Shown one piece after another: positions 16,737-52,702 of a stretch of DNA of 64,000 bases (the first letter of the stretch is position 1; each line of letters begins with the position of its first letter). The stretch is from the IMG/VR virus record IMGVR_UViG_3300012983_000043, one strand, 5' to 3'. This DNA is from an uncultured virus (IMG/VR IMGVR_UViG_3300012983_000043) (taxonomy: Duplodnaviria; Heunggongvirae; Uroviricota; Caudoviricetes). The notes under the pieces are model-generated. The model ran no database searches, was not told the DNA's origin, and was given only the letters and a program-made list of their open reading frames with translations. The translations under genes and the position numbers were made by a program.

Positions 16737-16940
16737 TAAAAGTTTGTTCTAAACAGGAACAAGCATGTAAGTTCTAATGTAATCATCATCTATCATTTAT
16801 AATTTCCTTGAATTTAAACTATAAAACTCTATCTAGGCTGCGAAAACTAGATAGAGCTAATTTTTAATAATTTGTTCTCATCTAAATTCGCAGCGATAGA
16901 ACAATTATATTTATATTATACACTCAAAAATGCAAGGCTG

Positions 16941-22475: not shown

Positions 22476-23764
22476 TCAGTCTTCTATCCAATTTCCATCA
22501 TCTTTGAGATAATCCTCTTCAAAAGAATCATCTTTTGCATCACTCCAACCCTGAGAATATGCTTCTTGCACAACTTCTAAAATGTCATTTAAAATGCTAT
22601 TTCTGTCAAGCGCTATAGAATAGAAATCTAAAATAGATTCGACTCTTTTCTTGAATTTTTCATCCATGTCAATCTTCCATGATGTCATCAACCATCTCTG
22701 GTGTGATTCCCAAGTCAACACGTCCCTTGAGCTCAAGAGCTTTGAGCTTGTTCATGACTGTCAGCTGCTTCGTCAGTTCTTGCGCTGCTATAGCCAATGT
22801 ATGATAGAAGTCTTCTTCAAAGCGCGTCATTTACTTGTCTCCTTTGTTTTTGACTAAATTATATCAAATTGCGCGCACGGTTTTCACTCAACCACTTGTC
22901 TACATAGTCATATAAGACTTTGCCAGTCCTTAAGTCAATTGTCTTGACAGTGTATGTCTTCCAATTGAGATCAAATAGCCAGTTCTCAAAGTCAGGCGAA
23001 GTCTGTTTGTTGAAGCCAGCATTCACTATCATCTCTTCAAATGTCATTGGCTCACTAGAGAAAGAATTGCTTTTGTCTCTATGCCAAGACATGACTGCAC
23101 CTTCATGTGTTATCATCTTGCACTTTGGATGCTTGCATGTCAAAAAGTTCTTGTATGTCCTGTATGGCACATCGCATGGACGCACAAGCGCATAGTCAAA
23201 CTTGTCAGGATCAAATTTGAAGTCTCGTGTGTCAATCTTCCAGATTTTTTCTACAACTGCAGTGTTGTTGCTTTTCATGATTCGAAGTCTATCTTTATAT
23301 TATTCATGTCTGCCCAGACTAGAAGCTCTTCTTTATTTGAAGAAGAAGCTATAGTAAACCATATTGGAATATTGTTATATGTCTTAATGCCATTCAAGTA
23401 CCATGCTCTTGTTCCATGGTGCAAGTTACATGAATTGAATATGACATTTTGATTCACTTTGTATATGTCAATCATATTGATTGCTTACATTGATGATTTG
23501 TCCAAATAAACCATATTGATTGTCTGCGATGAATTGCCCATATGAATAGTTTTCAATTGTCTTGTCTATAGTGATGTTATGGACATCAGCCCATACACGA
23601 ATTTCATCTTCATTGTCTGAATCTACAATGAAATGCACACGTTTTTTGTCAAATATTCCAATCAACTGCCAATTCATCATGAAATAGTCATCTCTATAAT
23701 TAAGAACAAATTTGTCATATTTGTCATATGGCAGTGTATGTCCAATCACTTGAAGCATCTTCAC
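22476..23764 (-). CDS. run of small hypothetical genes (about 22476-22674, 22859-23278, 23275-23475, 23468-23764)
   Basis: Overlapping start/stop codons; tags SNKEELLVWADMN and DNEDEIRVWADVH. Confidence 0.65.
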
Positions 23765-24930
23765 TCCTTGTAGCCAAGATATTTCAGAATCTTCTCAGTC
23801 GGCACATTCATGAAGAAGTCTCTGACTGATGCAATCTTCTTGTCAAGAAGTCCGAATGCTAATCCGGGAATCTTGAAGTTCTTAGTTATCCACAGAGCTT
23901 TGTCTTTTCGTGTCTGCAAGCTAGAATCTACTTTTAGATATTCATTCCATTCATTCTCTGAGTCTTCAACTAATTTCCAGAATCTTGTCTTGCACTCTTC
24001 AAGAGCTGCACGGAACTCCTCAAAGTACTCACATATCTCTTCTATCTCATTTGCACGGACAAGCTCAATAGCTCTAGCATATGACATCGTCCCATTCCCT
24101 TTGAGATGGTGAGCAGCTACATATGATGGAGATTTCACCTTCACTCTGTTGAACTTTCCATCACATACAACATATCCCTCTTCATCCCATGGCATTTCTT
24201 TTGTTGCAGCTAAGCATTCATCAATTGACTTCAAAGGAAAGACTTTTGGAGTGTCAAACAGCTTTGAGAAGACGGGGTCATCAGTGAAGTAAGTCTCCTC
24301 AAAAGTCTCATTGTTGCGCTTTCCAAGAAAGTAGAGTTTGTTCTCTTTATGAGGCACTACTACACGAGTCCATGGAGAGCATAACTCAAACATGTACGTG
24401 TAGCCTTCTTCCCAAAGAGCACATAGTCCTTCCTCTTGCAGCTTCTTCTGCCAGCCAGACTTCTCAAGAACAGCATCAAGCTGCTCAGCTACAATGTCAC
24501 CAAAGAAGCTGTATCTGCAGCCGAGCTGCTCTGCAATAGGTGCCTTAGAAGCAAGAATAGTCCCATTAGTAGAGATAAGCAAGTTGTCACCAACATTCAC
24601 AATCTTAATCAAGCTTCCATCTACCTTCTCTCCACAGCGAGCCGTAGTCCAGTCAATCTCTGGGCAGTATCCTTCTCCATAGTTTCCAAACTTCATGAAA
24701 GGAAATGAGACAATCTCATTGGTGTCTTCATTGAGAATCAAGCCACGGCACTCACGCACAATTGGCTCATTGAAGTCAGAATCAACTTGAGAGTACTTGA
24801 GCATCAAGAGATTCATGCCATTCCACTGCTCCCTTGACATAGTCAAGCAATATGGCTTCTCAGACAGCAGCTTCTCCCAGTCATCTGGATGCTGCTCAAT
24901 GAAGTTTTGAACTAGAAGTTTCTTTTTCAT
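23761..24930 (-). CDS. T4 Rnl1-like ATP-dependent RNA ligase
   Basis: ECRGLIL, FPFMKFGNYGE, motif I EKVDGS, TYMFEL, motif IV EGYVV, motif V RVKVKS..Y. Confidence 0.9.
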   Translation of the reverse strand: MKKKLLVQNFIEQHPDDWEKLLSEKPYCLTMSREQWNGMNLLMLKYSQVDSDFNEPIVRECRGLILNEDTNEIVSFPFMKFGNYGEGYCPEIDWTTARCGEKVDGSLIKIVNVGDNLLISTNGTILASKAPIAEQLGCRYSFFGDIVAEQLDAVLEKSGWQKKLQEEGLCALWEEGYTYMFELCSPWTRVVVPHKENKLYFLGKRNNETFEETYFTDDPVFSKLFDTPKVFPLKSIDECLAATKEMPWDEEGYVVCDGKFNRVKVKSPSYVAAHHLKGNGTMSYARAIELVRANEIEEICEYFEEFRAALEECKTRFWKLVEDSENEWNEYLKVDSSLQTRKDKALWITKNFKIPGLAFGLLDKKIASVRDFFMNVPTEKILKYLGYKE

Positions 24931-28712: not shown

Positions 28713-29196
28713 ATGACTTCAGCACTTCATCAAGCCTGACAGGAAATCCATCATGCGCTTGAACACAAGAGCAGAAGTTTGAAGACTTGTCTAATGGACC
28801 GACAACATAGCCTCGATGCATGTGTCCATATATCTGGTTCATAGAGCAGTCTTTTGGCTTGTGCTGAATGACAACATTGAATTCTTCAAGAATCAATCTG
28901 TCTAATACGGCATCAAAGACTTCTCTATAGAAGTCATCAGACAGCTTGTCATGATTTCCCTTTATCAGCATAATTCGACCATTCAGTCTTGACTTGAAGT
29001 TCAAGACACTTTTCTCATCGCCGTCACAGAAATCTCCATTGTACAAGACTATGTCATCTGAATTGACAGTTGAATTCCACTTCTCTATCAGCTTCTCTTC
29101 TTGCTCAGGCGTGAACACATGCAGAAATGGAAGCTTTATCGAGTCAAAATGATGGTCACTTGTGACAAATGTCTTCAATGGATCAATCTTCATCAT
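28681..29196 (-). CDS. calcineurin-like metallophosphoesterase
   Basis: SDHHF, NGDF, KGNHD, YGHMH. Confidence 0.85.
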   Translation of the reverse strand: MMKIDPLKTFVTSDHHFDSIKLPFLHVFTPEQEEKLIEKWNSTVNSDDIVLYNGDFCDGDEKSVLNFKSRLNGRIMLIKGNHDKLSDDFYREVFDAVLDRLILEEFNVVIQHKPKDCSMNQIYGHMHRGYVVGPLDKSSNFCSCVQAHDGFPVRLDEVLKSFTQQICQADC

Positions 29197-29578
29197 TAGT
29201 CTCAACTTGCTGTGGTTCTTCAACTATCTTGATTTTCAAGCCAGGAAATTCAGCAAGAAGATTTCCCATTGCTTCTCTCTTTGTGCTAGCTAGAACATAT
29301 GCCTCAGCATATGGATTCTTCGGATCAAGAAGCTTGCCATCTGGCCATTGAGCAGTGTAGCATATCTTGTACTGGTTCACCATTCGTCTTTTGTCCTTCT
29401 GTTTAGTTCTCGACGTGTATTTGCTTTGTCTTTCTTAGAGAATACTGTCCGAGTGCCAGTGTTCATCTTAATGACAATTCTTGGAATATAGGGTGTCTTC
29501 TTTTTCTTAGAGTTCTTCTTTTTCACAGTTGTCTCCTTTGGTTGATGTGACAACTATATCATAAACTGCAAGCAATGT

Positions 29579-32933: not shown

Positions 32934-33122
32934 ATGGCTTTAAGACGTGTAAGTGATCTTCCAAATCTTGATTCTGCAGTTCCAAAAATCACTAAAGATG
33001 TATTGAAGAACTGTTTGATTGAAGTGTCATATGCAAAACCTGACAATCAACAAGGCACTCATGTATATCAATCATATTTTGTGAATCTATATGATGCATT
33101 GTCTGCTTTCAATGCACGATGA
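32934..33122 (+). CDS. small late-type protein
   Basis: GTAAATA at 32900, AAAGGA RBS; RVSDLP motif similar to KISQLP of 37067-37504. Confidence 0.55.
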   Translation: MALRRVSDLPNLDSAVPKITKDVLKNCLIEVSYAKPDNQQGTHVYQSYFVNLYDALSAFNAR

Positions 33123-33124
33123 CA

Positions 33125-33427
33125 TTATAGCATCATGTCAACTGCAATGAGAATCTCTTCAAGTGACTTCTTCTCAGGTGCATAGCCGATGAACTTGTTG
33201 TCTTTGAAGACGCGTCCATGAATTCCATTCTTCTCAATGTCTTCTAAGATTGTCCTAAGTCCGCCTTCATGACCAATCATGTAGTAGAGATGCTTGTTGT
33301 CTTCGAAGTCAATTTCAACACTGAATTCATCAACAAACACTTCCACACCATAGCTTTCACATATCTTCTCAAGCTTAGTAAGAGATGATGGCTTTCGCTT
33401 GTGCTTTGTCTTTTTGTTTGATGGCAT
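33125..33427 (-). CDS. hypothetical protein with C-terminal tag
   Basis: KSLEEILIAVDMML. Confidence 0.7.
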   Translation of the reverse strand: MPSNKKTKHKRKPSSLTKLEKICESYGVEVFVDEFSVEIDFEDNKHLYYMIGHEGGLRTILEDIEKNGIHGRVFKDNKFIGYAPEKKSLEEILIAVDMML

Positions 33428-33441
33428 ATCATTCTTCTAAA

Positions 33442-33516
33442 TGGCTGAGGATGAACGAGTCGAACGTTCACTCTCGGTATCAAAAACCGATTTGCTCACC
33501 GCTACAACAATCCTCA
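33442..33516 (-). tRNA. tRNA-Gln(UUG)
   Basis: TGAGGAT/ATCCTCA acceptor, TCGGT-TTTTGAT-ACCGA, TTCGA, CCA. Confidence 0.9.
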
Positions 33517-33523
33517 AGTAAAA

Positions 33524-33598
33524 TGGTACGCCCAACGCTGCTCGAACTTGTAACTCCAATGTTAAAGTATCATTGCTCTACCAACTGAGTTAGGGCAT
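33524..33598 (-). pseudogene. degenerate tRNA pseudogene
   Basis: CTCAGTTGGTAGAGC D-arm, GTTCGA and ACCA present; anticodon and T stems do not pair canonically. Confidence 0.6.
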
Positions 33599-33651
33599 TT
33601 AAACATTCTGTATTTAAATTATATCAATTAACATTGTATTTTTATACTCAA

Positions 33652-34542
33652 TTAACCGCGTTTTTTGCCACGTGATGATTTATATTCAGGCAAATAGCAT
33701 TTACATAATCCAACAAAATTTGCCTATGAATATTGATAATCAAAATGTTCTTTAAATTTCTACCATCCATGATTGACATAATATTCATACATAGGTCTTA
33801 ATTCAGCAATTCGTTTTGGTTTGATTTCATTTTCACGTTTTTTCATGTAAAAATGCTTAAGCATCATCTTTCCATGTTCATTTAGTGGTTTTCCACGTTT
33901 TTCAAAACTAAATGGAATTGGATCATCTTTATTGATATATTTGACTTCATTAGTATTTGGATTAAATATTTTGCATTTATTTTTAGTGCTTTGTGAAAAT
34001 TCTTTCAATTGAGATATTACTTTATCAGTTATAGTCTAATACATTCCATATTCCCAACCATCAGGAAGCATTTCTGATTTAAGAATGACTTTTGATTCTT
34101 TCGTTGTTGGATTGCGAATCCAACAACGCTTCTTCATTGGATTATTTTCTCCTTTATTTGCTTCACTTGCAATTTTTGAAGCAAGCTTTCCAAATTCTTC
34201 TCTAGCCTATTGATAGTCTTCAGACATCAAAATGAAATCTCTCAATTCTTTTCGACTTCCATTTACAGTTCCTTTGTGCATGTTCATCAATGCACAAAGC
34301 ATCTAATCATGAAATTCATCATCATGATGAATGATCCAAAGATACACATGAGCCATAAAATGCTCTTTTGCAAGAAGAGCTATTTTATTCTCTTCAACAT
34401 CTAAACCATTCATTGAAGTTGGAATGATATGATGTATCTCTATTCTTCCTGGATGTTCTTTTGACTTAATCAAGACATTCTATTTTCTATATGCAACTAA
34501 GTCATTATAAGCTTTCTAAGCTTCTTCTTTTGTCATTGTCAT
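33652..34542 (-). CDS. HNH homing-type endonuclease, TAG-recoded
   Basis: EIHHIIPTSMNG.D...N...L.AKEHFMAH; multiple in-frame TAG; GTAAATA at 34580-34586. Confidence 0.8.
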
Positions 34543-34647
34543 TTTCTTTTTACCTTTTCTGTCATTGCTGTGACATTTTTATTTACTTTTTTATATAAAA
34601 TAATATACCCAAATCTGTTGGCAGCAACCATGAGTTTGGGTATAAAA

Positions 34648-34797
34648 TGGTCACAGTGATGAGAGTTGAACTCACTTAACCCTGATTATGGAGCTGGGTG
34701 AGGATTCCGAGACCTCATATTCCGTCTTACAAGGACGGCTCTTAACCGTTCAGACAACCCAGCAAAGTCAGGTGCATATCCGTTTTGCTACACTGTG
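34648..34797 (-). tRNA. tRNA-Lys(UUU), split in the anticodon by a nested tRNA-Thr (halves 34764-34797 and 34648-34688)
   Basis: CACAGTG...CCTGA-CTTT | TAA-TCAGG...CACTGTG-A-CCA. Confidence 0.88.
34689..34763 (-). tRNA. tRNA-Thr(UGU) nested inside tRNA-Lys
   Basis: GCTGGGT/ACCCAGC-T-CCA; CCGTC-CTTGTAA-GACGG. Confidence 0.88.
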
Positions 34798-34806
34798 CAA
34801 TAAATT

Positions 34807-34897
34807 TGGTCGCCAGAACGAGAGTTGCACTCGTACACAGTTTTTAACCTGCACTGGATTTTGAGTCCAGCTCGTCTGCTTATTCCGACATCTGGCG
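34807..34897 (-). tRNA. tRNA-Leu(CAA)
   Basis: CTGGA-CTCAAAA-TCCAG, long variable arm, ACCA. Confidence 0.9.
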
Positions 34898-34921
34898 AAA
34901 TCATCTTTATTCTATCAAAAA

Positions 34922-35443
34922 TCAATCTTCTTTAAACAACTTCTTGTCAGCATTCAACTTCTTTGCTGCATCCATGAATTCATTCAACCTGTCTTTCACT
35001 TCAAGAAGACTTCTTTTCAAATCATAGTTCTCTTCTTCTACCTCTAGAATCCGTCTTGACATATCCGACACCAGCTTATGCTGTGCATCATCACTGACAG
35101 AGACATTTGCAATCAAGTCTCTGATGCAAGAGGGCTCTTGCTCAAGCTCTGCAACATATCCCTCTGTCTCTAGTCTGATGAGAAGCTCATGAATGTCTTT
35201 AGCATTGAAATCATGTATCAATTCAGTGTGGTCTTCAAGTATGATGCTCTTCCGCTGTTTAATGTCAAGACTGTTGAGTTTTGCAATTCTTGTGTATCTT
35301 CTGGTATGCAAGAAGATGCGTCCAATGTTCATGTCATCATAGAACACAACATGACCTAAGTTCTTCATGTCATCAAGCTTGGCAATTGCCAAATCAGACC
35401 AGTCATCATCAACTAAAAGGACATATTTTGTCTTTTCACTCAT
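34922..35443 (-). CDS. hypothetical protein, internal tag plus coiled coil
   Basis: KDIHELLIRLE; layout like 24927-25352. Confidence 0.7.
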   Translation of the reverse strand: MSEKTKYVLLVDDDWSDLAIAKLDDMKNLGHVVFYDDMNIGRIFLHTRRYTRIAKLNSLDIKQRKSIILEDHTELIHDFNAKDIHELLIRLETEGYVAELEQEPSCIRDLIANVSVSDDAQHKLVSDMSRRILEVEEENYDLKRSLLEVKDRLNEFMDAAKKLNADKKLFKED

Positions 35444-35988
35444 CAGTGAACTCCAGCTTTCAAGTCTGCCCAGACTATCAGTTCGTCAATTGATGAGACA
35501 TCAGGCGTCTTGTATTCAGAATATTTTTTAATTTCATGCAGTGGTCTATTGATCAATCTATCTGCTACAGCGTCAAACAGAACATTGAATCTCATTGTTG
35601 CAGCTGTGCCGTAATTGCACTTTATTGCGTCTGACACAGCTCGATTGATTCTGCTGAACACAACATTCACTAGCTTTCTTTCATCAAGATGGAATTCACT
35701 GACTAGCTCTTCAAGAGAGACAATCTGCTCTCTAAGCATGATGCGTGGATTTGCCTTTTTGAAGAGAGAATCTACTTTGCCAAATGATCCAATGTCATCA
35801 CTCCATCGATTGTATGACAAGCGGTAGTAGTTGTTGCTAGTGTCTTTCACTCTGAAGAAGAATCTGTTCTTGAGGCTGGTTGCATTCACATAGAAGACTG
35901 GCTTGCCAGCTGGCACAACGGCCGCTGCAAATGCATAGATGAATTGCTTCATCTCTTCAAAAGAATGTCTTTTGCTAGTTGTCTTCAT
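35443..35988 (-). CDS. hypothetical protein with C-terminal tag
   Basis: SSIDELIVWADLKAGVH; start approximate. Confidence 0.7.
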   Translation of the reverse strand: MKTTSKRHSFEEMKQFIYAFAAAVVPAGKPVFYVNATSLKNRFFFRVKDTSNNYYRLSYNRWSDDIGSFGKVDSLFKKANPRIMLREQIVSLEELVSEFHLDERKLVNVVFSRINRAVSDAIKCNYGTAATMRFNVLFDAVADRLINRPLHEIKKYSEYKTPDVSSIDELIVWADLKAGVH

Positions 35989-36139
35989 GTGTCTGATCTC
36001 AAAAAACTTGCATGCACCTATCACCGCATGCATTCATGCTGGAGACATATTGTCCAAGCATAGAATGAATGCATGCTCTTGTATGTTAGTTGTTGTGTCA
36101 CTGGAGTTGACGAAGCGTCCACGCTTTTGCATGCAATGC

Positions 36140-36286
36140 TGGCATCCCTGAGAGGACTCGGACCTCCAACCACAAGCTTATGATGCCAAGCGCAAGACTC
36201 GAACTTGCATTTTCCTAATATGCTAGGATGTCTTGCATTAGACGAACTTGACGAAGGCTCGTGCTCTTCCATTGAGCTACAGGGAC
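36140..36286 (-). tRNA. tRNA-Arg(UCU), split in the anticodon (halves 36253-36286 and 36140-36180)
   Basis: GTCCCTG-TA-GCTC..GAGC-A-CGAGC-CTTC | TAA-GCTTG...CAGGGAT-G-CCA. Confidence 0.88.
36181..36252 (-). ncRNA. 72-nt tRNA-like insert without a canonical anticodon loop
   Basis: GTCAAGT/GCTTGGC acceptor, GTCT/AGAC D-stem, TCCTAG-CATA-TTAGGA, GCAAG-TTCGAGT-CTTGC, ends A-TCA. Confidence 0.85.
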
Positions 36287-36294
36287 TTCAAACA

Positions 36295-36763
36295 TCACTT
36301 GTTCTTGCCGCGGCCCTTCTCCTTGCGCCGCTTGATCTCCTTGTGCACGCCCGGAGCAGTTCCCTTTGCCCACTCTTCAAGCACAGCATTTGACACGCAC
36401 CTGACAACGGGCTTGATCTTTGTCAAGAAGTAGTATTGCTTGCTTGAACGGTTCTTCACTGGCGGGACATGTGTTCCTGGAATCTGAATCATCTTTTGTT
36501 CTCCAATTTATTTTGTTTCAATTATATCAAATTCTTCTCAAGTCTTTCACTCAAGCATTGTAGATCTGGCCCTTCCAGCGATATACATTCTGGCGCTCAA
36601 TCTTGCCAGTCCTCTTGTTCTTGTATGTCTTTGATGACTGCCCATATGCAATCTCTACACCAGTTGCTCCAGCAGGAATCAATGTCTTAGATGTCTCTGC
36701 ATCCCAGACAGGATATTTAGTCGGCTTGCCAAGCGGCTTGAAGTCATATTCATTCATAGTAGT
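36295..36763 (-). CDS. two small hypothetical genes (36295-36492, about 36551-36757)
   Basis: Track ORFs, RBS, promoter element between them. Confidence 0.55.
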
Positions 36764-36937
36764 TTCCTTTTCACTTTCCATAGATTCCAAAGATCAAGAT
36801 GACAATGAATGCAATGATGCCAAGCACACAACCGCATCCGGCTCGAATTGCATCATCACGAGCAAACTCTTCTTTTTCTTGTTGGTTGTCATTCATGGTT
36901 GAATTATATCATATTGCATATGATTCTTTAACTCAAT

Positions 36938-37012
36938 TGGTGCCTCTGCTAGGAATTGAACCTAGCTTACATGGATGAAAACCATGTGTACTAACCGCTA
37001 TACGACAGAGGC
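36938..37012 (-). tRNA. tRNA-Glu(UUC)
   Basis: CATGG-TTTTCAT-CCATG; GCCTCTG/CAGAGGC-A-CCA. Confidence 0.92.
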
Positions 37013-37066
37013 AATTTAATTGATTGTCTTGATTTCAGACAAAATAGCAGTCATATTTGCATAGCA

Positions 37067-37504
37067 TCAAGCATCATATACAGGACCGCCTTGTTCAGAG
37101 CCGCCGCCATTGACAAGAATTGTTTCATCTTGTCTTCCATCACTGATCCTGTCAAGCGCATTCTTCAATATAGTGTCAAATGCATCACCGCTTAATGCAG
37201 ATGAAAGTGCATCAGGCAATTCATTAGTAAGCACTTGCTCTGCTATTCTTGCAACTTCTTCTTCAAGAGCTTCCGTCAATGCATCTTGCACAGCTTGTCC
37301 GACAATAGACGATATCTGTGGCGTGAGCTCATTCTTCACTTTTGCTTTTATGTAGTTAGAGTAAGTTCCGACCTGAAGCTTCTTTGACTCAAATGGATAT
37401 TTTCCACCTGTGTGGTCTGACACAAGAAGCAGGTCATTGTTGTCAATGCTCGACTATGCCATCTCTGGCAGCTGTGATATCTTGAAAGACTTAGTTGTTG
37501 CCAT
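37067..37504 (-). CDS. hypothetical late-type protein, TAG-recoded
   Basis: MATTKSFKISQLPEMA(Q)SSIDNNDLLLVSD continues into the track ORF. Confidence 0.65.
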
Positions 37505-37751
37505 TTTCATTTGCCTCATTGCATTCTTCTTTTGTCAGCCTGAACTTCTCTAATTCATCTAGAAAGAACTTATCACCGAATTCATTTATCAACCAGCAAT
37601 ACTCATCATAGTCGGGTGACTCTTCTGGTATGCCTCCGCCAATGACATAAGGCGCAAACTTTCTTGCAATTGCTTGTGCTCTCATCAGACGAGCATATGC
37701 AGCTTGCCGCTGCTAGTTGATCTTCCACCAATATATCTAAGTAGCTGTCAT
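37491..37751 (-). CDS. hypothetical protein, TAG-recoded
   Basis: MTAT(Q)IYWWKIN(Q)QRQAAYARLMRAQ...; GTAAATA at 37757-37763. Confidence 0.65.
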
Positions 37752-37770
37752 GATTTTATTTACTTCAAGT

Positions 37771-37864
37771 TGGTGACAGGGGATGGATTCGAACCACCGA
37801 TGTTTACCACTTAGGTACGAGTTTTACAGACTCGCGTCTTCGGCCAGCTAGACAAAACCCTGCC
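37771..37864 (-). tRNA. tRNA-Tyr(GUA)
   Basis: CGAGT-CTGTAAA-ACTCG, long variable arm, GTTCGAAT, ACCA. Confidence 0.9.
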
Positions 37865-37876
37865 AATAAACTCAAA

Positions 37877-37952
37877 TGGTAGGCGATGAGTGAGTCGAAC
37901 ACTCCTAAGCTCCTTATAAGAGAGCAGTAATCAACCGATATACGAATCGCCC
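37877..37952 (-). tRNA. tRNA-Ile(UAU)
   Basis: GCTCT-CTTATAA-GGAGC; GTTCGACT; ACCA. Confidence 0.88.
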
Positions 37953-38137
37953 ATAAATCGCGGAGGGTTTTTTGTTGAGCCATCACATAAATGTGCTTGC
38001 GGCGTTATATTCAACATAATGAGCTTAACATCACGTCTAATGAAACTCCAACCCACAACTTCTTGCAAGTGACTGCTGTGTCTCAAGCAGCTTTCATTGA
38101 CATATTATCAAATTTCATTTGACTTTAAACTAAATTC

Positions 38138-38211
38138 TGGAGCGCCGTGCGGATCCCGAGACCGCATATCCAGCTTGGAAGGCTGGCATTCTGCCTTTGA
38201 ATTAACAGCGC
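38138..38211 (-). tRNA. tRNA-Gly(UCC)
   Basis: CCAGC-CTTCCAA-GCTGG; GCG start, T-CCA end. Confidence 0.9.
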
Positions 38212-38225
38212 ATACATTAAAAAGA

Positions 38226-38490
38226 ATGCTCACATATCTGACTGGAACTTGCAACAAATGAGGTACCTAAGTCAGCAAGCCTTCGGCGCTATTCACCAAA
38301 CTGTTCAGTATTCCATTATTGATGCTTTAATAGACACATCTTTCAATTTTCAGGTATGCACCTTCGCAATCAGCATGACTCTCAGTTGTCTGCTCACCTT
38401 AGATATGGGGCATTTGACTCCCCAATGAGGTGTAAGGCTGCCGTTGAAGCATTAAGCATACGAGGTCTGACTCCCTCTCTACATGAGCAT
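38226..38490 (-). ncRNA. candidate ~265-nt structured RNA
   Basis: ORF-free; closed by ATGCTCATGTA/TATGTGAGCAT helix; internal GGG/CCC and CTGACT/AGTCAG complements. Confidence 0.45.
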
Positions 38491-38539
38491 AATAAAACTA
38501 ATTTTTGTAATAAGATTTAAACTTACAATCTTATTATAC

Positions 38540-39349
38540 TTAAGAACAATTTCTAAAAATATTTTCAAGCTATTTAACTACATTGTTTTTAGGACGAATT
38601 CTTATAGTCATATAGCCATTCTTCAATGCAATTTCATCTTTTTGCTTATCTGCTATATTTCCTTCAGGATGCCAAAATTCTCCATCAATTTCAATAAATA
38701 GCTTTTTTAAAGGAATATAAAAATCTACAAAACGTTTTATATTTTCAAAACAAAATTCTTTTTGGTGTTCAAAAATAATATTATGCTTTGATAACCAATC
38801 AAATGCAACTTGTTCAGGATAAGTCATCTATTTTCTATTTCCTGCTAATTTACGATTAGGATGTTTTTCAGGATGTTCTGTATAAAACTTCTTCTTTTTT
38901 TCTGACTAAGCTTTACGTTTTTCATCTGTCCAATATAATGAAGAACATCTATTTATTATAGATCCATTTGCTATACCTTCTTTCATAGCAATTGAAACTG
39001 CTTTAGAATTACGTTTTACACGTTCATCGGTTTCTTTTGTAAGACCTTTATTCCAAGCATATATTCTTCCATCTTCTCCAATTTTAACATGATTATTATG
39101 AATATGTTTTTGTAATTCATTTTTTGTTTTACAAATCTTATTACAATGTTTACATTTCCATGTTCCAAATGGAGCAGTCTGTTTAGAATGATCCTATTTT
39201 ATTCCACGTCTCTTTAAACCAAGAGCAATATAATCAATGGATAATGATGCCATTGCACTAGCACAGGATTTTGAACAAAATCTTCCAGAACCATAAGATC
39301 CATCATGTTCTTTTTTACATTTTGGATTTTCACAAATATATTTTTTCAT
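38540..39349 (-). CDS. Vsr/DUF559-like (EDxHD-type) endonuclease with zinc-finger N-terminus, TAG-recoded
   Basis: CENPKC..HDGSYGSGRFCSKSC; TYPE...FVDFY...IEIDGEFWH...KD; GTAAATA at 39355-39361. Confidence 0.8.
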
Positions 39350-39389
39350 AAAAATATTTACTCAAGCGCATTACTAAACTCATCTAAAT

Positions 39390-39465
39390 TGGTCGGAGCG
39401 CCAGGTGCTGCCCCTGGACCTTCGGTTCCCAAAACCGGCGTGCAAAGCTGTTATACCACGCTCCG
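39390..39465 (-). tRNA. tRNA-Pro(UGG)
   Basis: CCGGT-TTTGGGA-ACCGA; CGGAGCG/CGCTCCG-A-CCA; atypical GGCAGCA T-loop. Confidence 0.88.
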
Positions 39466-39472
39466 AAATCAA

Positions 39473-39620
39473 TGGTGGACCTGATCGGTGCTGCCCCGAT
39501 TCAATGATGCTTGAGGAGCTGAGACTAAGACTCGAACTTAGATCTTCCTAAGTTGCTAGGATGTCTTGCATTAGACGACCTCAACCAAAGCACCCGTGTT
39601 TGCTGATTCACTACAGGCCC
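39473..39620 (-). tRNA. tRNA-Ala(UGC), split in the anticodon (halves 39586-39620 and 39473-39513)
   Basis: GGGCCTG/CAGGTCC-A-CCA with G3:U70; GGTGC-TTTG | CAA-GCATC. Confidence 0.88.
39514..39585 (-). ncRNA. 72-nt tRNA-like insert, homolog of 36181-36252
   Basis: GTTGAGG/TCTCAGC acceptor; shares CGTCTAATGCAAGACATCCTAGCA..TTAGGAA and AAGTTCGAGTCTT; ends T-CCT. Confidence 0.85.
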
Positions 39621-39630
39621 AAATAAAATT

Positions 39631-39785
39631 CTCATGTGGGTGGACTCGAACCACCAAGCTTTCGCGGCAGATTATGGACGATCTATCTGGAGTTGCACCA
39701 GAATCGCAGCCATTCTCATGATTGCATTCTACTATTTAACTATAGACCGACAGTCTGCTGAGGCTACCGATTTCTCCACACATGA
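39631..39785 (-). tRNA. tRNA-Asn(GUU), split in the anticodon (halves 39750-39785 and 39631-39674)
   Basis: TCATGTG/CACATGA-G; GCAGA-CTGT | TAA-TCTGC; GGTGG-TTCGAGT-CCACC; CCA not encoded. Confidence 0.85.
39675..39749 (-). ncRNA. 75-nt tRNA-like insert
   Basis: CGGTCTA/TAGATCG-T-CCA; TCTGG-TGCAACT-CCAGA; extended irregular anticodon arm. Confidence 0.8.
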
Positions 39786-39795
39786 ATAAATTGTT

Positions 39796-39919
39796 TGGTC
39801 CGGCAAGGAGACCACTACTTCTCCAATGCTAAGCTTTCACATATGATCATGCACTTAGCGCCCACCTCAATGCGGGTGTGTCTATGGCGAGACTCTACGT
39901 CTCTTTGCACCATTGCCGA
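39796..39919 (-). ncRNA. 124-nt enlarged tRNA-like RNA
   Basis: TCGGCAA/TTGCCGG-A-CCA; GGAGA/TCTCC; extra GAGAC/GTCTC hairpin; CCCGC-ATTGAG-GTGGG; long GCTAAG/CTTAGC arm. Confidence 0.65.
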
Positions 39920-39923
39920 AATT

Positions 39924-40085
39924 TAGCGGGTGTGGGAAATGCTCCCAACGTGGATGTTATCCGGGAGGTTTGGACAATCGGTCAAGACTCGAACTTGAAT
40001 TGCTTTCTACTTAATTCAAAAGTGTTTTACATCTTAAACTACCGGTTGATGGGCCTCCTGACTTTGACTTCTAGTCTAACCCGCA
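39924..40085 (-). tRNA. initiator-like tRNA-Met(CAU), split in the anticodon loop (halves 40049-40085 and 39924-39970)
   Basis: GCGGGT/ACCCGC with 1:72 mismatch; GGAGG-CCCAT | AA-CCTCC. Confidence 0.82.
39971..40048 (-). ncRNA. 78-nt tRNA-like insert
   Basis: CAACCGG/CCGATTG-T-CCA; GTTT/AAAC D-stem; TCAAG-TTCGAGT-CTTGA; irregular anticodon arm. Confidence 0.8.
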
Positions 40086-40329
40086 ATTAAATTCTCTATT
40101 CAGAAGCTCACAACTTCTGACAAACCAACTTCAATTTTCAAAGAACAATTATATTATACATCAATGCCAAAGCATTATATACTTTTATTTCATCTTAGGG
40201 CACTTGTAGTTTGCATGATTGTCAACTGCAGGACACAGAGCATTGTCTTTGCATGCTTCACATGTCTGCTTGCTTGGCTTCACTGCAGGTTTGTCTTTGA
40301 GAATTTTCTTGTTCATATTGTCAATTCAT

Positions 40330-40755
40330 TCAAGTCTTCAAATCAGCTTTGACTTTCAATTCTTCAAGATTGTTGATTATGTATTTTTTGCCAGCAACTT
40401 CTATCATCAAACCCTCATCATCAGCGTCAAACCCATGCAGCACAGCTTTCATCGCCTGATATTTGACATCATCAGGATCACATCTCATATGATATGCAAA
40501 ACTGTCAATGCTGATCACATAATTGATGCTCCATTCAAGTTGGCTGTCATAGTCTTTCCAGATTTTAGAGTCATACAATTCAATGTATGCTTCGCCTGGC
40601 AAAGAATACAGAATATGTTCTTCATCTTCATCATTGTCGGTGTCATCATTGCTTGCATGCAAAACACTGTTATGGTCTATGAACAATGAATCAATGCCCA
40701 GCAATGCACATAGTCCATCATACAATTTAGATGCATTTTTTCTTGTCAGCTTCAT
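40330..40755 (-). CDS. hypothetical protein with C-terminal tag
   Basis: NNLEELKVKADLKT; paralog of 41939-42373. Confidence 0.75.
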   Translation of the reverse strand: MKLTRKNASKLYDGLCALLGIDSLFIDHNSVLHASNDDTDNDEDEEHILYSLPGEAYIELYDSKIWKDYDSQLEWSINYVISIDSFAYHMRCDPDDVKYQAMKAVLHGFDADDEGLMIEVAGKKYIINNLEELKVKADLKT

Positions 40756-40961
40756 TTGATTCTCTATTCAATTCATTAAAATGCCAAGGGCTTCTAGAAG
40801 TTGATCATTCTTCTAGAAGCCCACCTCTCCCGATGAGAGGCACACCATGCTTGCAAGCCATGGTGCATTTATGCGTTCTGTTCGCTTGCGCTAGCAAGGT
40901 GCATTGCTCCTGCCGGACATCCATCCGGCGTGCCCACAACTGCAACCGGCGTGGACGGATA

Positions 40962-41874
40962 TCAGAAAGTCAAGTCAACATCAATTGTCCGCCAGAACTC
41001 AAGGTCATCCATGAGCTTCGGAAGTGTCTTGAAAGACGGCCTAATCGGCTTTCCATCTTCTTCGATATAGAGAGTGTCGCCCTTCTTGTATAGCTTGCTT
41101 GCACGCTTCACAAGAGGCTTAGTCAGCTGATGGACAACTCGCAGTGCCTTCTTGACATCTTTGAACATCTTCTTCAGCTCAGCATGCTGCTGGACAAACT
41201 CTTTCTTAGTGATGGGCTTCTTCATTATGATCTCCTTTGTTAGTTTGTTTGTTGATTGATTTGATGGTTCAATCATATCAAGACTTGAATGCTGTTTTCA
41301 CTCAAACATTCAATTTTGAAATTTTGATGCTGTTGATGAAATTACAGCACGCATCAATGAACTTGACTACATCAGATTCTGAGATGCATTGCGCATGAAG
41401 TTGCGCATTGAGCTCTTCAAGTCGAGCTTTGAGATTTTGGTTCTCTTCTACAAGCGCGTCATATACAGCAAGATTGCTAGAGTGCATTTGCTTGTAGTGT
41501 TCAAAAAGCTCCTTGAGCTTTGCGTTCTCTACTTCAAGCTTGTCAATGTATGCTCTAACTTCAGGTGTGATTCCAAAGTCTGCATCAGTCCATTCATCTG
41601 CCTTTGGAGCTTTGCTCTCATTCTCAAGCTTTGCAATAGCGTCTTTCAGATACTGCTTGCCTGCATCAAGAATGAACCAGCTGTCCTTGAACTTCTTGAT
41701 GTATCCAGCATTGTGAAGCTGATAGAGAGCATTGCTGATAGACTTCTTGTCCTTGAATGCTTTATTCTTGATCAAGACATCTTTGTCTCCTTCACACAAT
41801 GCATCCTGGTATTTGCTGCATGTAGTCATCCAGAGAAGGATGATCTGAGGCTTTGTGAGTTGTTTAAGCTTCAT
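40962..41874 (-). CDS. two hypothetical genes (40962-about 41225; 41302-41874, wHTH-like plus coiled coil)
   Basis: RBS AAAGGAGA; SISNALYQLHNAGYIKK..WFILDAG. Confidence 0.65.
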
Positions 41875-41938
41875 TTGTTGTTGTCTCCTTGTTTTGTTTT
41901 GACATGTCAATTATATCAATCATGTCCAAATTAATTCA

Positions 41939-42373
41939 CTCAAGTCTTCAAGCCAACCTTGATTTTCAATTCATTCTTGATAAATATTTCTTCAAGAGAA
42001 TTTGCTTTAAAAAATGCCGAAGGATTATCATTATAGTCAATTATAATTCCCTTTTTAAGAAATTCAAGCAAATGCGCATTAGAATTCTATGCTTAACATC
42101 AGATGCCTTTTGCTTAAGATGATAAGCAAATTCATCAATAGTCATTGATTCATCACTAATCGTCCAACTAGCATTTTTATATGCATCTAAAGACATTTTA
42201 TCTACAGACACATATTTTCTATTAGATAATTGTATAGGATAACAATATTCATCATCATCGTCATGATCAACTGCACATAGATCTCCACAGTCATCTATGG
42301 CAATGTCTTCAGCATTCAAGAAATTAAGCAATGCATTCCAGACCTCATCAGCATTCTTTTTTGTTAATTTCAT
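41939..42373 (-). pseudogene. frameshifted paralog of 40330-40755
   Basis: MKLTKKNA... stops at 42041; alternate frame continues KGIIIDY...NSLEEIFIKNELKIKVGLKT*. Confidence 0.6.
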
Positions 42374-44161: not shown

Positions 44162-44797
44162 TCACATAAACTTGTCTTCGCCGAAGAATTCAAGTTTTCC
44201 GTGTTCATTCTTCTTGCATCTGTAGAGCTGGCCTGGAATCTTCTTGAAGAGCTTATTGAGATATGCAATCAATTCATCATCTGAGACAATCTTCCAGTTC
44301 CACACCATGCATCCCATGTTCACATTCAAAATCCTGTGGTCAAGGTCAAGACAGTGCTTCCAGCTGTTATGGACATGCCCGCATAAGTGAATGGGCGCTG
44401 TCATGCATGATGCATCGCACCGGCGGTCATATGTAGGGTAGTGTGACAAAGACACAGACGGATATCTCTTGCTCAAGAATATGTGCATAGAGTCACACAC
44501 TGACTTGACTTTGTTGTTCAAGTCATGATTGCCTCTGATGTTGATGAATGTCGCAGAAATGTCTTTTATCAGCTCATAGGGCTTGACATCTAGGCCTTTA
44601 GAGTCTAGATGCGCATCTTGCTTGAAGCACGCAAGGTCGCCCAAATGGTAGATTATGTCTTCAGGCTTAGCGCGTTGCTTGCATGACCTGAGCAGCGCAG
44701 CATCATGTTTCTCAATAGACTTAAATGGCCATGAGTCTAGCTTAAGCAGAGACTCAAAACCAAAATGAAAATCGGATGAGAAGTATTTATGTGCCAT
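44162..44797 (-). CDS. calcineurin-like metallophosphoesterase
   Basis: SDFHFG, LGD, RGNHD, SHYP, CGHVH. Confidence 0.88.
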   Translation of the reverse strand: MAHKYFSSDFHFGFESLLKLDSWPFKSIEKHDAALLRSCKQRAKPEDIIYHLGDLACFKQDAHLDSKGLDVKPYELIKDISATFINIRGNHDLNNKVKSVCDSMHIFLSKRYPSVSLSHYPTYDRRCDASCMTAPIHLCGHVHNSWKHCLDLDHRILNVNMGCMVWNWKIVSDDELIAYLNKLFKKIPGQLYRCKKNEHGKLEFFGEDKFM

Positions 44798-52306: not shown

Positions 52307-52702
52307 TCACTCAACAATGATCTCGCCTGGATAGTCTTCCATAGACTTCTTGAAGTTGTCAACAAGACTGTCGCTCAATCCATGCACATTCTTGAAATTG
52401 CCTGTGCATCTGTAGACATCAAAGCTTGCACCGATCTCATCAGCGATCTTCTTGTATGCATCTACAAAGGCTCGTTTTGTGAATGTATTGGCCACAACAA
52501 CATCAAAGTGATTCTCTAAAGCCGTTCTAGCCATATTCATGCACCATTCTATAGCAGCTGGCATATTCTCTTTATGCCAGTCATAGACTCCATTGTGCAT
52601 ATGATACTGATCATTCTCAAGTAAAAGCGTATTTGGAAACATACGCTTAGCAGCAGAGCTCTTGCCACTGCCCGGTGCACCTCTGTATAAGATCAATTTC
52701 AT
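52307..52702 (-). CDS. AAA_33/PNK-like P-loop kinase
   Basis: LYRGAPGSGKS, VVVANTF, NVHG. Confidence 0.8.
   Translation of the reverse strand: MKLILYRGAPGSGKSSAAKRMFPNTLLLENDQYHMHNGVYDWHKENMPAAIEWCMNMARTALENHFDVVVANTFTKRAFVDAYKKIADEIGASFDVYRCTGNFKNVHGLSDSLVDNFKKSMEDYPGEIIVE

What the first reader, a model, noticed from the sequence alone, without database searches (positions are those of the whole stretch)
39924..40085. Initiator-like tRNA-Met split at 36/37 rather than 35/36
A fourth distinct insert type (39971-40048) lies one base further 3', so the site is not absolutely fixed. Making an initiator tRNA splice-dependent could gate translation initiation (inference). The anticodon stem is GGAGG rather than the usual three consecutive G-C pairs, so initiator identity is tentative.
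Basis: partly seen in the sequence, partly recalled or inferred. Interest (0 to 1): 0.72.

Follow-up and report, generated by a model that had tools for sequence, protein, structure and literature searches.

The report
tRNA nested inside phage initiator-like tRNA
A rumen phage carries a methionine tRNA gene of the start-codon type that is split in its anticodon loop by a 78-base insert shaped like a whole tRNA; related phages have the same gene without the insert, so it is a genuine removable insert whose means of removal is still unknown.

Summary
On the minus strand, 40085-39924 is a tRNA(CAU) gene interrupted between U36 and A37 by a 78-nt insert (40048-39971). The insert runs exactly from position 1 to CCA76 of a tRNA-shaped unit.

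- **Insert-less alleles.** Four distinct alleles in metagenome contigs, plus contigs of three ruminant-gut runs, join exactly at the predicted junction.
- **Host tRNA.** Standard tRNA finders miss it (Rfam, ARAGORN default). Its cloverleaf is still supported by compensatory changes: 6 pairs, 0 of 500 shuffles reach this.
- **Initiator marks.** It has a U1·U72 mismatch, A73, G2:C71, C3:G70, A11:U24 and an AGG/CCU anticodon stem. It also has an unusual long variable arm.
- **Other cases.** Four more tRNA genes in the same cluster carry the same kind of insert, all at 35/36. The site is therefore fixed relative to the inner tRNA, not the outer one.
- **Ligase.** The window encodes a T4 Rnl1-type RNA ligase.

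My best reading (about 0.4) is a tRNA-shaped intron cut out by tRNA end-processing enzymes, with the halves sealed by the phage ligase. No RNA data exist, so splicing is inferred. Lak megaphages showed similar "enigmatic" tRNA introns in 2019, and this scan noted related cases on other DNA.

The parts
40049..40085 (-). 5' part of the outer tRNA(CAU). It comprises T1 (U1·U72 mismatch), acceptor strand GCGGGT, D arm GACT/AGTC (A11:U24), anticodon stem GGAGG, and loop bases C32 C33 C34 A35 U36.
   Evidence: Sequence. It is conserved in 9 metagenome loci.
39971..40048 (-). The 78-nt insert, a tRNA-shaped unit from position 1 to CCA76. It has a 6 of 7 bp acceptor stem, a canonical T arm (TCAAG/TTCGAGT/CTTGA), a degenerate anticodon arm, and the tail T-CCA.
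   Evidence: ARAGORN default calls it a tRNA. There is no Rfam tRNA hit at E<=1. It is absent from 7 of 9 loci and from contigs of X1, X4 and X5.
39924..39970 (-). 3' part of the outer tRNA(CAU). It comprises A37 A38, stem CCTCC, a long variable arm (GGAT-AAC-ATCC hairpin), a T arm with the non-canonical loop AGCATTT, acceptor strand ACCCGC, T72 and A73.
   Evidence: Sequence. Compensatory changes occur in the variable arm, T stem and acceptor stem.
39630..39786 (-). Second nested pair: outer tRNA-Asn(GTT) with a long variable arm, split at 35/36 by the 75-nt inner unit 39749-39675 (tail TCCA).
   Evidence: ARAGORN intron mode. The joined form scores 120.0. The insert-less homologue is L005 823-907. 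The inner unit scores 32.2 bits in Rfam.
39473..39620 (-). Third nested pair: outer tRNA-Ala(TGC) with G3·U70 and T loop GGCAGCA, split at 35/36 by the 72-nt inner unit 39585-39514 (tail TCCT).
   Evidence: Sequence. The insert-less homologue in L007 joins at TTTG|CAA and has a compensating anticodon stem. ARAGORN does not call the joined form.
36140..36286 (-). Fourth nested pair: outer tRNA-Arg(TCT), split at 35/36 by the 72-nt inner unit 36252-36181 (tail ATCA). This inner unit is 79% identical to the third one.
   Evidence: The joined form scores 119.1. The inner unit scores 34.6 bits in Rfam.
34648..34797 (-). Fifth nested pair: outer tRNA-Lys(TTT), split at 35/36 by the 75-nt inner unit 34763-34689. 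The inner unit looks like an intact tRNA-Thr(TGT) with tail TCCA.
   Evidence: The joined form scores 110.6. The insert-less homologue is L005 2862-2936. The inner unit scores 40.6 bits in Rfam.
23764..24930 (-). T4 Rnl1-type RNA ligase (389 aa), the candidate enzyme for sealing the two tRNA halves.
   Evidence: Pfam PF09511, E 3.1e-17. phrog_562, E 9.2e-52, matching residues 34-383. PDB 2c5u (T4 RNA ligase 1), E 1.4e-11, with the lysine motif KxDGS aligned.
52310..52702 (-). Small P-loop kinase resembling polynucleotide kinase. It is a possible end-healing enzyme; its role here is inferred.
   Evidence: Pfam AAA_33, E 3e-10. phrog_505 polynucleotide kinase, E 3.6e-11.
38543..39349 (-). Free-standing endonuclease gene (DUF559/HNH-like, 4 in-frame TAG) inside the tRNA cluster. 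It is absent from relatives and could drive gene conversion of neighbouring tRNA alleles.
   Evidence: The joint 38320->39466 is skipped in X5 and in X4 record 10.
33655..34542 (-). Free-standing homing endonuclease gene (7 in-frame TAG) inside the tRNA cluster. In relatives it is replaced by 126 letters.
   Evidence: phrog_655, E 6.6e-22. The joint 33449->34646 appears in X1 and X5.

Best explanation
The locus is a non-canonical, initiator-type tRNA(CAU) gene of a TAG-recoded ruminant-gut phage. A complete tRNA-shaped unit (positions 1 to CCA76) was inserted into it between U36 and A37.

Proposed mechanism, all steps inferred:
1. The precursor folds as two nested cloverleaves.
2. The host's tRNA end-processing enzymes recognise the inner unit. 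RNase P cuts at its 5' end, and an RNase Z/BN-type endonuclease cuts just after CCA76.
3. This leaves the outer 5' half with a 3'-OH and the outer 3' half with a 5'-phosphate. The halves are still held together by the outer stems.
4. The phage's T4 Rnl1-type ligase seals this anticodon-loop nick, giving an 84-nt tRNA.

Supply of this tRNA, and of the four others built the same way, would then depend on the phage ligase.

Shown: the insert, its exact ends, its presence/absence polymorphism, the conserved fold of the outer tRNA, and the ligase gene. Inferred: every RNA-level step.
For: 1. **Cut points track the inner unit.** In all 5 nested genes the insert starts at inner position 1 and ends 4 nt after the inner acceptor strand (tails TCCA x3, TCCT, ATCA). 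Its place in the outer loop differs: 35/36 in four, 36/37 here.
2. **Removing exactly that unit restores good tRNAs.** ARAGORN scores are Asn 120.0, Arg 119.1 and Lys 110.6. These exceed the scores for ARAGORN's own intron placements (110.5, 110.1, 101.6).
3. **The inner units keep the acceptor stem.** They show 6-7 of 7 pairs, and three (A, C, D) have a canonical T loop. Their anticodon arms are degenerate: 6-nt loops in two and no proper loop in the Met insert. This fits selection for processing signals rather than decoding.
4. **The outer tRNA halves are intact in insert-bearing alleles.** All stems pair. The window and L004 differ by a hairpin-preserving change in the variable arm.
5. **The precursor is predicted to fold as nested structures.** The 163-nt precursor's minimum-energy fold has the outer acceptor, D, anticodon, variable and T helices, with the insert closed by its own acceptor stem (z = -2.73).
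6. **The ligase is present.** A full-length T4 Rnl1 homologue lies 15 kb away, with a Pnk-like kinase and phosphoesterases also in the window. Sealing anticodon-loop nicks with 3'-OH and 5'-P ends is the natural reaction of T4 Rnl1 (established knowledge, recalled).
7. **No alternative excision signal was found.** No ribozyme or group I intron family matches in 33300-40300 at E<=1, and 78 nt is too short for a self-splicing intron.
Against: - No RNA evidence of any kind exists.
- A cut exactly after A76 is not the usual RNase Z site, which is after N73. Such cuts are known only for some enzymes (Thermotoga RNase Z, E. coli RNase BN; recalled). The host is unknown.
- Two of the five inserts lack CCA (TCCT, ATCA), so a CCA-guided cut cannot explain them.
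- The Met insert and one other get no Rfam tRNA hit at E<=1. The Met insert's own fold is not better than shuffles (z = -0.57).
- Rnl1 genes are common in phages without nested tRNAs (1053 records), so its presence is weak evidence.
- The outer tRNA is so atypical that its function in translation is itself unproven.
- Insert-less alleles coexist in the same samples (X1, X5), so the phage population may not depend on the interrupted copy.
Confidence: 0.4

Rival explanations
1. The insert is a piece of mobile or illegitimately inserted DNA (a copy of a tRNA gene, or a retro-copied mature tRNA) that has simply inactivated the outer tRNA gene. Nothing is spliced. At most the inner unit is released as a small RNA, and the outer halves are young pseudogene shells tolerated because the phage's tRNAs are dispensable.
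For: - Insert-less alleles occur in backgrounds about 99% identical to the window (X4 record 10: 4 differences in 483 and 2 in 130) and in the same samples as insert-bearing ones. The insertion is therefore recent, and intact halves prove little.
- The tRNA cluster is a hot spot of other insertions that relatives lack, namely two endonuclease genes.
- The window's cluster holds far fewer intact tRNAs (9 ARAGORN default calls in 64 kb) than relatives do (34 in the 12 kb of L007).
- Earlier notes of this scan read nested tRNAs in ultra-small bacteria as insertion cassettes rather than introns (these are leads only).
Against: - Five independent insertions all have ends exactly at inner positions 1 and 76, and all lie inside anticodon loops. 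That is hard to get from a DNA-level accident without selection for precise removal.
- No terminal repeats, target duplication or shared target motif exist; the bases before the inserts are CCCAT, CTGT, TTTG, CTTC and CTTT.
- The inner units are not replacements of the outer tRNA (Thr sits inside Lys; the others are degenerate), unlike the cassette cases.
- The window versus L004 comparison shows 3 differences in 200 outer-tRNA positions against 12 in 256 spacer positions. This weakly suggests continued constraint.
Confidence: 0.3
2. The insert is spliced out, but by a different route. An unidentified phage or host endonuclease cuts both junctions and leaves 2',3'-cyclic phosphate and 5'-OH ends. 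The Pnk-like kinase and a phosphoesterase heal these ends, and Rnl1 seals them, as in fungal and plant tRNA splicing and in T4 tRNA repair.
For: - The window encodes all three activity types: Rnl1, a Pnk-like kinase at 52310-52702, and two metallophosphoesterases at 28684-29223 and 44165-44797.
- This route does not need a cut after A76 by RNase Z, and it can accommodate the two inserts that lack CCA.
Against: - No candidate endonuclease was identified.
- The junctions do not form a bulge-helix-bulge motif. Both cut sites sit in one 5 x 6-nt internal loop with no complementarity (read from the sequence and the fold), so an archaeal or eukaryal-type splicing endonuclease is unlikely.
- The kinase is short (131 aa) and lacks a fused phosphatase domain.
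Confidence: 0.15
3. The chimera is the functional product. The outer tRNA acts as a stable scaffold that presents the inner tRNA-like domain, for example as a decoy for host tRNA-cutting defence nucleases or for another tRNA-binding factor. Neither part decodes.
For: - The outer tRNAs that carry inserts (Lys UUU, Asn GUU, Arg, initiator Met) are of kinds that known anticodon nucleases attack (recalled knowledge, not tested).
- The whole precursor is predicted to fold stably as nested structures.
Against: - RNase P would be expected to cut any accessible tRNA-like 5' end, so the chimera should not persist.
- Known nuclease cut sites (33/34, 34/35, 38/39; recalled) do not match the insertion sites.
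- Nothing in the data supports this reading directly.
Confidence: 0.08

Closest known systems
'Enigmatic' tRNA introns of Lak megaphages (Devoto et al. 2019, PMC6784885; passages read)
   Same: Both are phage tRNA genes interrupted in the anticodon region by short inserts. In Lak phages one insert 'itself may encode a tRNA'. Related genomes with and without the insert exist, and the insert sequence is identical where it is shared. Both phages read TAG as sense and come from gut samples.
   Different: - The phage lineage differs: about 40% G+C here against about 26% in the paper's Table 1.
- No similarity was found to any INPHARED record.
- Here the insert is a bare tRNA unit from 1 to 76, five genes in one cluster carry one, and one of them is an initiator-type tRNA split at 36/37.
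- The paper offers no mechanism. Its supplementary tables were not read.
T4 tRNA repair (anticodon nuclease PrrC countered by Pnkp and Rnl1)
   Same: Both involve a phage Rnl1-type ligase whose natural substrate is a tRNA nicked in the anticodon loop. The window encodes such a ligase and a Pnk-like kinase.
   Different: In T4 the nick is damage made by a host defence enzyme in a host tRNA. Here the break would be programmed by the gene's own structure. The T4 system is recalled knowledge and was not tested here.
Bacterial group I introns in tRNA anticodon loops (for example cyanobacterial tRNA-Leu(UAA) and tRNA-fMet)
   Same: Both are intervening sequences inside the anticodon loop of bacterial-type tRNA genes, including initiator tRNA, and both show patchy presence among relatives.
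   Different: The insert is 78 nt and tRNA-shaped, and no group I model matches at E<=1. It is too small to self-splice.
Archaeal and eukaryal tRNA introns (bulge-helix-bulge or 37/38 introns cut by a splicing endonuclease, joined by RtcB or Trl1)
   Same: Both would be protein-dependent removal of a short intron next to the anticodon, followed by ligation.
   Different: There is no bulge-helix-bulge structure at the junctions (fold and direct reading). The sites are 35/36 and 36/37, not 37/38. The context is bacterial-type: T4-like ligase, TnpB genes, and bacterial initiator marks.
tRNA-like processing handles (mascRNA/MALAT1, plant mitochondrial t-elements)
   Same: In both, a tRNA-shaped module inside a longer transcript would be used as a cut signal for RNase P and RNase Z.
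   Different: Those systems release transcript ends and do not rejoin the flanks. Here the flanks would have to be ligated to make a working tRNA. This comparison is recalled; an Rfam mascRNA hit in the region was weak and lay on an ordinary tRNA-Glu.

Membership tests
Bacterial initiator tRNA (tRNA-fMet) | No Watson-Crick pair at 1:72 (C1·A72 in E. coli; PMC5389676 and PMC1635315 passages). | tested here: met
   T1·T72. The T before GCGGG is conserved in all 6 aligned sequences. The 3' end ...CGC-T-A-CCA is encoded in L002/L008 and L005/L007/L009. The bases differ from E. coli's C·A. The 5' end itself is inferred, not mapped.
Bacterial initiator tRNA (tRNA-fMet) | G2:C71 and C3:G70 (formylase determinants), and A73. 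| tested here: met
   Columns 5-165 (GC) and 6-164 (CG) are invariant in 6 of 6 sequences, and A follows T72 in all.
Bacterial initiator tRNA (tRNA-fMet) | A11:U24 in the D stem (100% of fMet genes in PMC1635315), together with G12:C23. | tested here: inconclusive
   A11:T24 is present in 6 of 6 (column pair 14-28). Pair 12:23 is C:G, not G:C. Part of the D stem lay inside the fishing 20-mer.
Bacterial initiator tRNA (tRNA-fMet) | Three consecutive G:C pairs at 29:41, 30:40 and 31:39 (relaxed rule R29 G30 G31 .. Y39 C40 Y41). | tested here: inconclusive
   The strict rule is not met: A29:U41, G30:C40, G31:C39. The relaxed rule and the AGG..CCT signature are met; that signature is found in 15% of fMet genes (PMC1635315). 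G30 is the critical base (PMC5389676).
Bacterial initiator tRNA (tRNA-fMet) | Methionylation, formylation, and use in the ribosomal P site. | not testable with these tools
   This needs biochemical assays. The C33, the long variable arm and the non-canonical D and T loops are atypical for any initiator.
Canonical tRNA (Rfam RF00005 / ARAGORN) | Score at or above the model's threshold. | tested here: not met
   - Outer tRNA: the insert-less orthologues in L002, L003, L005, L006 and L007 get no RF00005 hit at E<=1 and no ARAGORN default call.
- Outer tRNA, joined window sequence: 92.9, against the lowest default-reported score of 100.5.
- Inner unit: ARAGORN calls it at 101.9, but Rfam gives no hit at E<=1.
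Canonical tRNA (cloverleaf fold) | Four or five helices supported by compensatory substitutions. | tested here: met
   Over 23 pairs, 98.6% of cells are paired. Six pairs change on both sides (acceptor 2, variable arm 3, T stem 1). Zero of 500 shuffles reach this, and slid controls give 33-52% paired. There are only 6 sequences.
Phage tRNA introns containing a tRNA-like unit (Lak-type, Devoto 2019) | An insert in the anticodon region of a phage tRNA gene that is itself predicted as a tRNA, with insert-less alleles in relatives. | tested here: met
   No sequence relatedness to Lak inserts was tested.
Group I self-splicing intron | Match to the group I covariance model, and a size of about 200 nt or more. 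| tested here: not met
   No hit at E<=1 in 33300-40300. The insert is 78 nt.
Archaeal-type BHB intron | Two 3-nt bulges separated by a 4-bp helix at the splice sites. | tested here: not met
   Both junctions lie in one internal loop (CCCAU opposite UCCAAA) between the outer anticodon stem and the inner acceptor stem (fold; direct reading).

The most novel reading that the evidence does not exclude
Phages have a protein-only tRNA splicing pathway in which the intron is itself a tRNA. Ubiquitous tRNA end-processing enzymes (RNase P at the 5' end, an RNase Z-type cut after position 76) excise it, and the phage's own Rnl1 ligase joins the exons. Production of a phage initiator-type tRNA, and of Lys, Asn, Arg and Ala tRNAs, is thereby placed under control of a phage enzyme. 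This would also give T4-type RNA ligases a constitutive role beyond repair.
Probability: 0.3. Interest if true: 0.85.

Novelty: new variant of a known kind. Interest (0 to 1): 0.66.

Why it matters
Bacteria and their phages are thought to remove tRNA introns only by self-splicing. A tRNA-shaped insert bounded exactly by mature tRNA ends, sitting next to a T4-type RNA ligase gene, suggests a simple enzyme-based alternative that can be tested in a test tube with three purified enzymes.

It would explain the tRNA introns left as 'enigmatic' in Lak megaphages. It would also show how a phage could tie its own supply of start-codon tRNA to a phage-made enzyme.

Independently of splicing, the host gene is a previously unrecognised form of initiator-like tRNA with a long variable arm and no canonical elbow. 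Standard tRNA finders miss it, so phage tRNA inventories undercount such genes.

Tried and rejected
**Searches for relatives**
- No whole genome is held for the window.
- No similar DNA was found in INPHARED phages.
- Two neighbouring proteins have no relatives in IMG/VR.
- A 24-mer shared by two inner units has no match in IMG/VR.
- The genome-contig scan gave one match inside a Citrobacter coding region with no tRNA. I rejected it as chance.

**RNA evidence**
- No RNA holder was listed among 24 runs, so expression and splicing could not be examined.

**Readings considered and rejected**
- Chance flanking complementarity. Rejected because of the insert-less orthologues and the covariation.
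- G1:C72 numbering. Rejected because it needs a 7:66 mismatch, a 5-nt T loop and an extra base before the encoded CCA.
- IS200/IS605-type insertion by the TnpB elements in the window. Rejected because there is no shared target motif or hairpin ends.
- tRNA-Ile2 identity. Unlikely, because C3:G70 is present (G3/A3/C70/T70 mark tRNA-Ile in PMC1635315) and the phage has tRNA-Ile(UAU) genes.
- The inner unit as a UAA suppressor. Rejected because its anticodon loop lacks U33 and ARAGORN gives conflicting readings (tta, aag with a 3-nt intron).

**Other**
- The inner units have no close free-standing counterpart among 108 tRNAs of the window and loci. The exception is the Thr-like one, with 72% identity to relatives' tRNA-Thr.
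- Literature searches for an explanation of tRNA-shaped introns found none.
Full report
**What is there.** All features lie on the minus strand. The window is a stretch of a phage-like genome of about 40% G+C, with genes almost all on one strand.
- Several mobile-type genes are open only if TAG is read as sense: two TnpB-like genes and two endonuclease genes.
- Between 40085 and 33440 lies a tRNA gene cluster.
- The finding's coordinates (39924-40085) match a gene that runs from T1 (40085) to A73 (39924).
- The 37-nt 5' part ends in the anticodon-loop bases C32 C33 C34 A35 U36 (40049).
- The 78-nt insert occupies 40048-39971.
- The 47-nt 3' part starts with A37 A38 (39970).

**The insert is real and its ends are exact.** A 20-mer from the 5' part found 9 metagenome contigs.
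- Two carry the same 78-nt insert. L001 is 100% identical to the window over 4517 nt and so is not independent. L004 is 97% identical over 609 nt.
- Seven lack the insert. These are four distinct alleles, and all read ...GGAGGCCCAT directly followed by AACCTCC.
- Contigs from four ruminant-gut runs were laid on 33000-42000. In X4 (record 10, otherwise 4 differences in 483 and 2 in 130), X5 and X1, contigs skip 39956-40048 and carry 14-18 other letters. Reverse-complemented, these letters are the 3' anticodon stem and a variant variable arm.
- A further X5 contig has a different anticodon stem with a CTCATAA loop and no insert.
- X1 record 6 and X5 record 14 span the insert. Both forms therefore coexist in single samples.
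- Moving the boundary by one base in either direction fails to reproduce the insert-less sequence.

**The outer gene is a real but non-canonical tRNA.**
- Rfam's tRNA model finds none of the insert-less orthologues at E<=1 (90 matches in six loci, none at the orthologues' positions).
- ARAGORN at default settings finds none either.
- The window's joined sequence reaches only 92.9, while the lowest default call in the window is 100.5.
- In an alignment of six sequences (A1), a five-helix cloverleaf has 98.6% of 138 cells paired. Six pairs change on both sides: two in the acceptor stem, three in a variable-arm hairpin and one in the T stem.
- None of 500 shuffles reaches any of the five measures, and slid controls pair 33-52% of cells.
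- The D stem and anticodon stem are invariant, partly because the fishing 20-mer covers them.
- The tRNA has a 15-nt variable region with a hairpin, a D loop without GG and a T loop AGCATTT. One relative (L002) has GG and TTCGATT instead.

**Initiator identity.**
- Two allele groups encode ...CGC-T-A-CCA (L002/L008 and L005/L007/L009). This fixes T72 and A73 and makes the conserved T at 40085 position 1, a U1·U72 mismatch.
- With this numbering the acceptor stem has six clean pairs and the T loop has 7 nt.
- G2:C71, C3:G70 and A11:U24 are present. The anticodon stem gives A29:U41, G30:C40 and G31:C39.
- According to the passages I read in PMC5389676 and PMC1635315, the features of bacterial tRNA-fMet are the 1:72 mismatch with 2:71 and 3:70, A11:U24 (in 100% of fMet genes), and R29 G30 G31..Y39 C40 Y41. 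AGG..CCT is a natural variant found in 15% of fMet genes.
- G12:C23 is not met; here the pair is C12:G23.
- In L002 the gene directly upstream is an ordinary-sized tRNA-Met with the same t·t top pair and the same CCCATAA loop.
- The 17-nt anticodon arm recurs in 10 IMG/VR loci. ARAGORN, run on 9 of them (L018 was left out because it is identical to L017), as tRNA-Met. Their 1:72 states are c·t (2 loci), t·t (1), t-a (1) and g-c (1).
- The gene is therefore best described as initiator-like. C33, the long variable arm and the odd elbow are not initiator features, and function is untested.

**The insert is a tRNA unit, and it is one of five.**
- ARAGORN calls 40048-39971 a tRNA, with conflicting anticodon readings. 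Rfam does not call it.
- It has 6 of 7 acceptor pairs, a canonical T arm and the tail T-CCA. Its anticodon arm is degenerate, and its own fold is no better than shuffles.
- Four more genes in the cluster have the same build: Asn(GTT), Ala(TGC), Arg(TCT) and Lys(TTT).
- Each insert begins at inner position 1 and ends four bases after the inner acceptor strand. The tails are TCCA, TCCT, ATCA and TCCA.
- Removing exactly this unit gives ARAGORN scores of 120.0, 119.1 and 110.6 for three of them. Ala is not called.
- Insert-less homologues confirm the 35/36 junction for Asn and Lys and for Ala. Arg rests on the score alone.
- Three of the five inner units pass Rfam's tRNA threshold, at 40.6, 34.6 and 32.2 bits.
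- Two inner units are 79% alike; the others are unrelated at the 52-68% level.

**Mechanism.**
- The cut points are constant in the inner tRNA's coordinates and variable in the outer tRNA's coordinates. This is what one expects if the inner unit defines excision.
- Enzymes that recognise tRNA ends exist in every bacterium: RNase P at position 1, and RNase Z-type enzymes at the 3' end.
- Their products (3'-OH on the upstream piece, 5'-phosphate on the downstream piece) are the substrates of an ATP-dependent RNA ligase. This is established enzymology, recalled.
- The window encodes a full-length T4 Rnl1 homologue at 23764-24930, a Pnk-like kinase and two phosphoesterases.
- The predicted fold of the 163-nt precursor keeps all outer helices and closes the insert with its own acceptor stem.
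- No ribozyme or group I model matches, and the junctions do not form a bulge-helix-bulge.
- Weak points: a cut after A76 rather than N73 is unusual; two inserts lack CCA; Rnl1 is widespread in phages (1053 records); and no RNA data exist.
- I give the RNase P / RNase Z / Rnl1 route 0.4, a dead interrupted gene 0.3, another healing-and-sealing route 0.15, and a scaffold or decoy role 0.08.

**Origin and spread.**
- Insert-less alleles occur in distant relatives. The insert occurs only in the window's close lineage, so it is most simply a gain.
- All three combinations of insert state and variable-arm type are seen except 'no insert with the window-type arm'. This points to recombination or repeated gain and loss.
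- Two free-standing endonuclease genes inside the cluster are themselves absent from relatives and could drive such conversion, as SegB does in the T4 tRNA region (recalled).
- Between the window and L004 there are 12 differences in 256 spacer positions, 3 in 200 outer-tRNA positions and 3 in 153 inner positions. None falls in the 78-nt Met insert. The numbers are too small to be significant.

**Comparison with what is known.**
- Devoto et al. [quoted passage not shown]
- My five full-text searches found no later explanation.
- Earlier notes of this scan describe Lak-type 'hairpin plus mini-tRNA' inserts, and nested tRNA cassettes in ultra-small bacteria that were read as non-spliced. These are leads, not evidence.
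- The present case is a new variant. It comes from a different phage lineage, the insert is a bare tRNA unit 1-76, there are five cases side by side, one sits in an initiator-like tRNA at a shifted site, and a candidate ligase lies in the same window.

**Verdict.** The initiator-like reading is supported by sequence marks. Splicing and any 'gating' of initiation are plausible but untested.

Noticed in passing
window 38227-38488 (-): This may be a sixth interrupted tRNA. ARAGORN calls a tRNA-Leu(taa) with a roughly 170-nt insert in the anticodon loop, but only at an 80% threshold. The insert is not tRNA-shaped, and no group I model matches at E<=1. Relatives diverge or skip from 38320 onward.
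   Followed up: partly
window 4987-6165 (-), 14012-15289 (+), 33655-34542 (-), 38543-39349 (-), 15762-16796 (-): TAG is read as sense (3-7 in-frame TAGs each) in TnpB-like and homing-endonuclease-type genes, while most core genes on the minus strand contain no TAG. Relatives carry long-arm tRNA(CTA) genes (L007, L008). No CTA tRNA was found in this 64-kb window.
   Followed up: partly
window 39393-39465 (-), 39473-39620 (-); L007 about 6723-6805: Several phage tRNAs (Pro UGG, Ala UGC) have T loops such as GCAGCAC or GGCAGCA and D loops without GG. This unusual elbow is conserved in the 162-kb relative, so it is not decay. ARAGORN at default settings misses both. Rfam at its gathering score also misses both, although the more sensitive E<=1 scan picks up Pro at 32.9 bits.
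   Followed up: partly
L003, L005, L007: Related phages pack up to 34 tRNA genes into 12 kb. Many tRNAs that are normally short (Asn, Asp, Arg, and the CTA suppressor) have long variable arms of 85-94 nt.
   Followed up: no
window 33520-33600 (-): A tRNA-like sequence with a good acceptor stem and a CCA tail appears, by eye, to have a 9-nt anticodon loop containing TTTAA. Neither ARAGORN nor Rfam calls it.
   Followed up: no
window 39675-39749 (-) versus L004: The inner unit of the Asn gene has T loop TGCAACT in the window but the canonical TTCAAGT in L004, a two-base difference.
   Followed up: partly
window 16944-18431 (-), 18800-19942 (-): A DUF2201 metallopeptidase/VWA-like protein sits next to a MoxR-type AAA ATPase. 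Its function in this phage is unknown.
   Followed up: no
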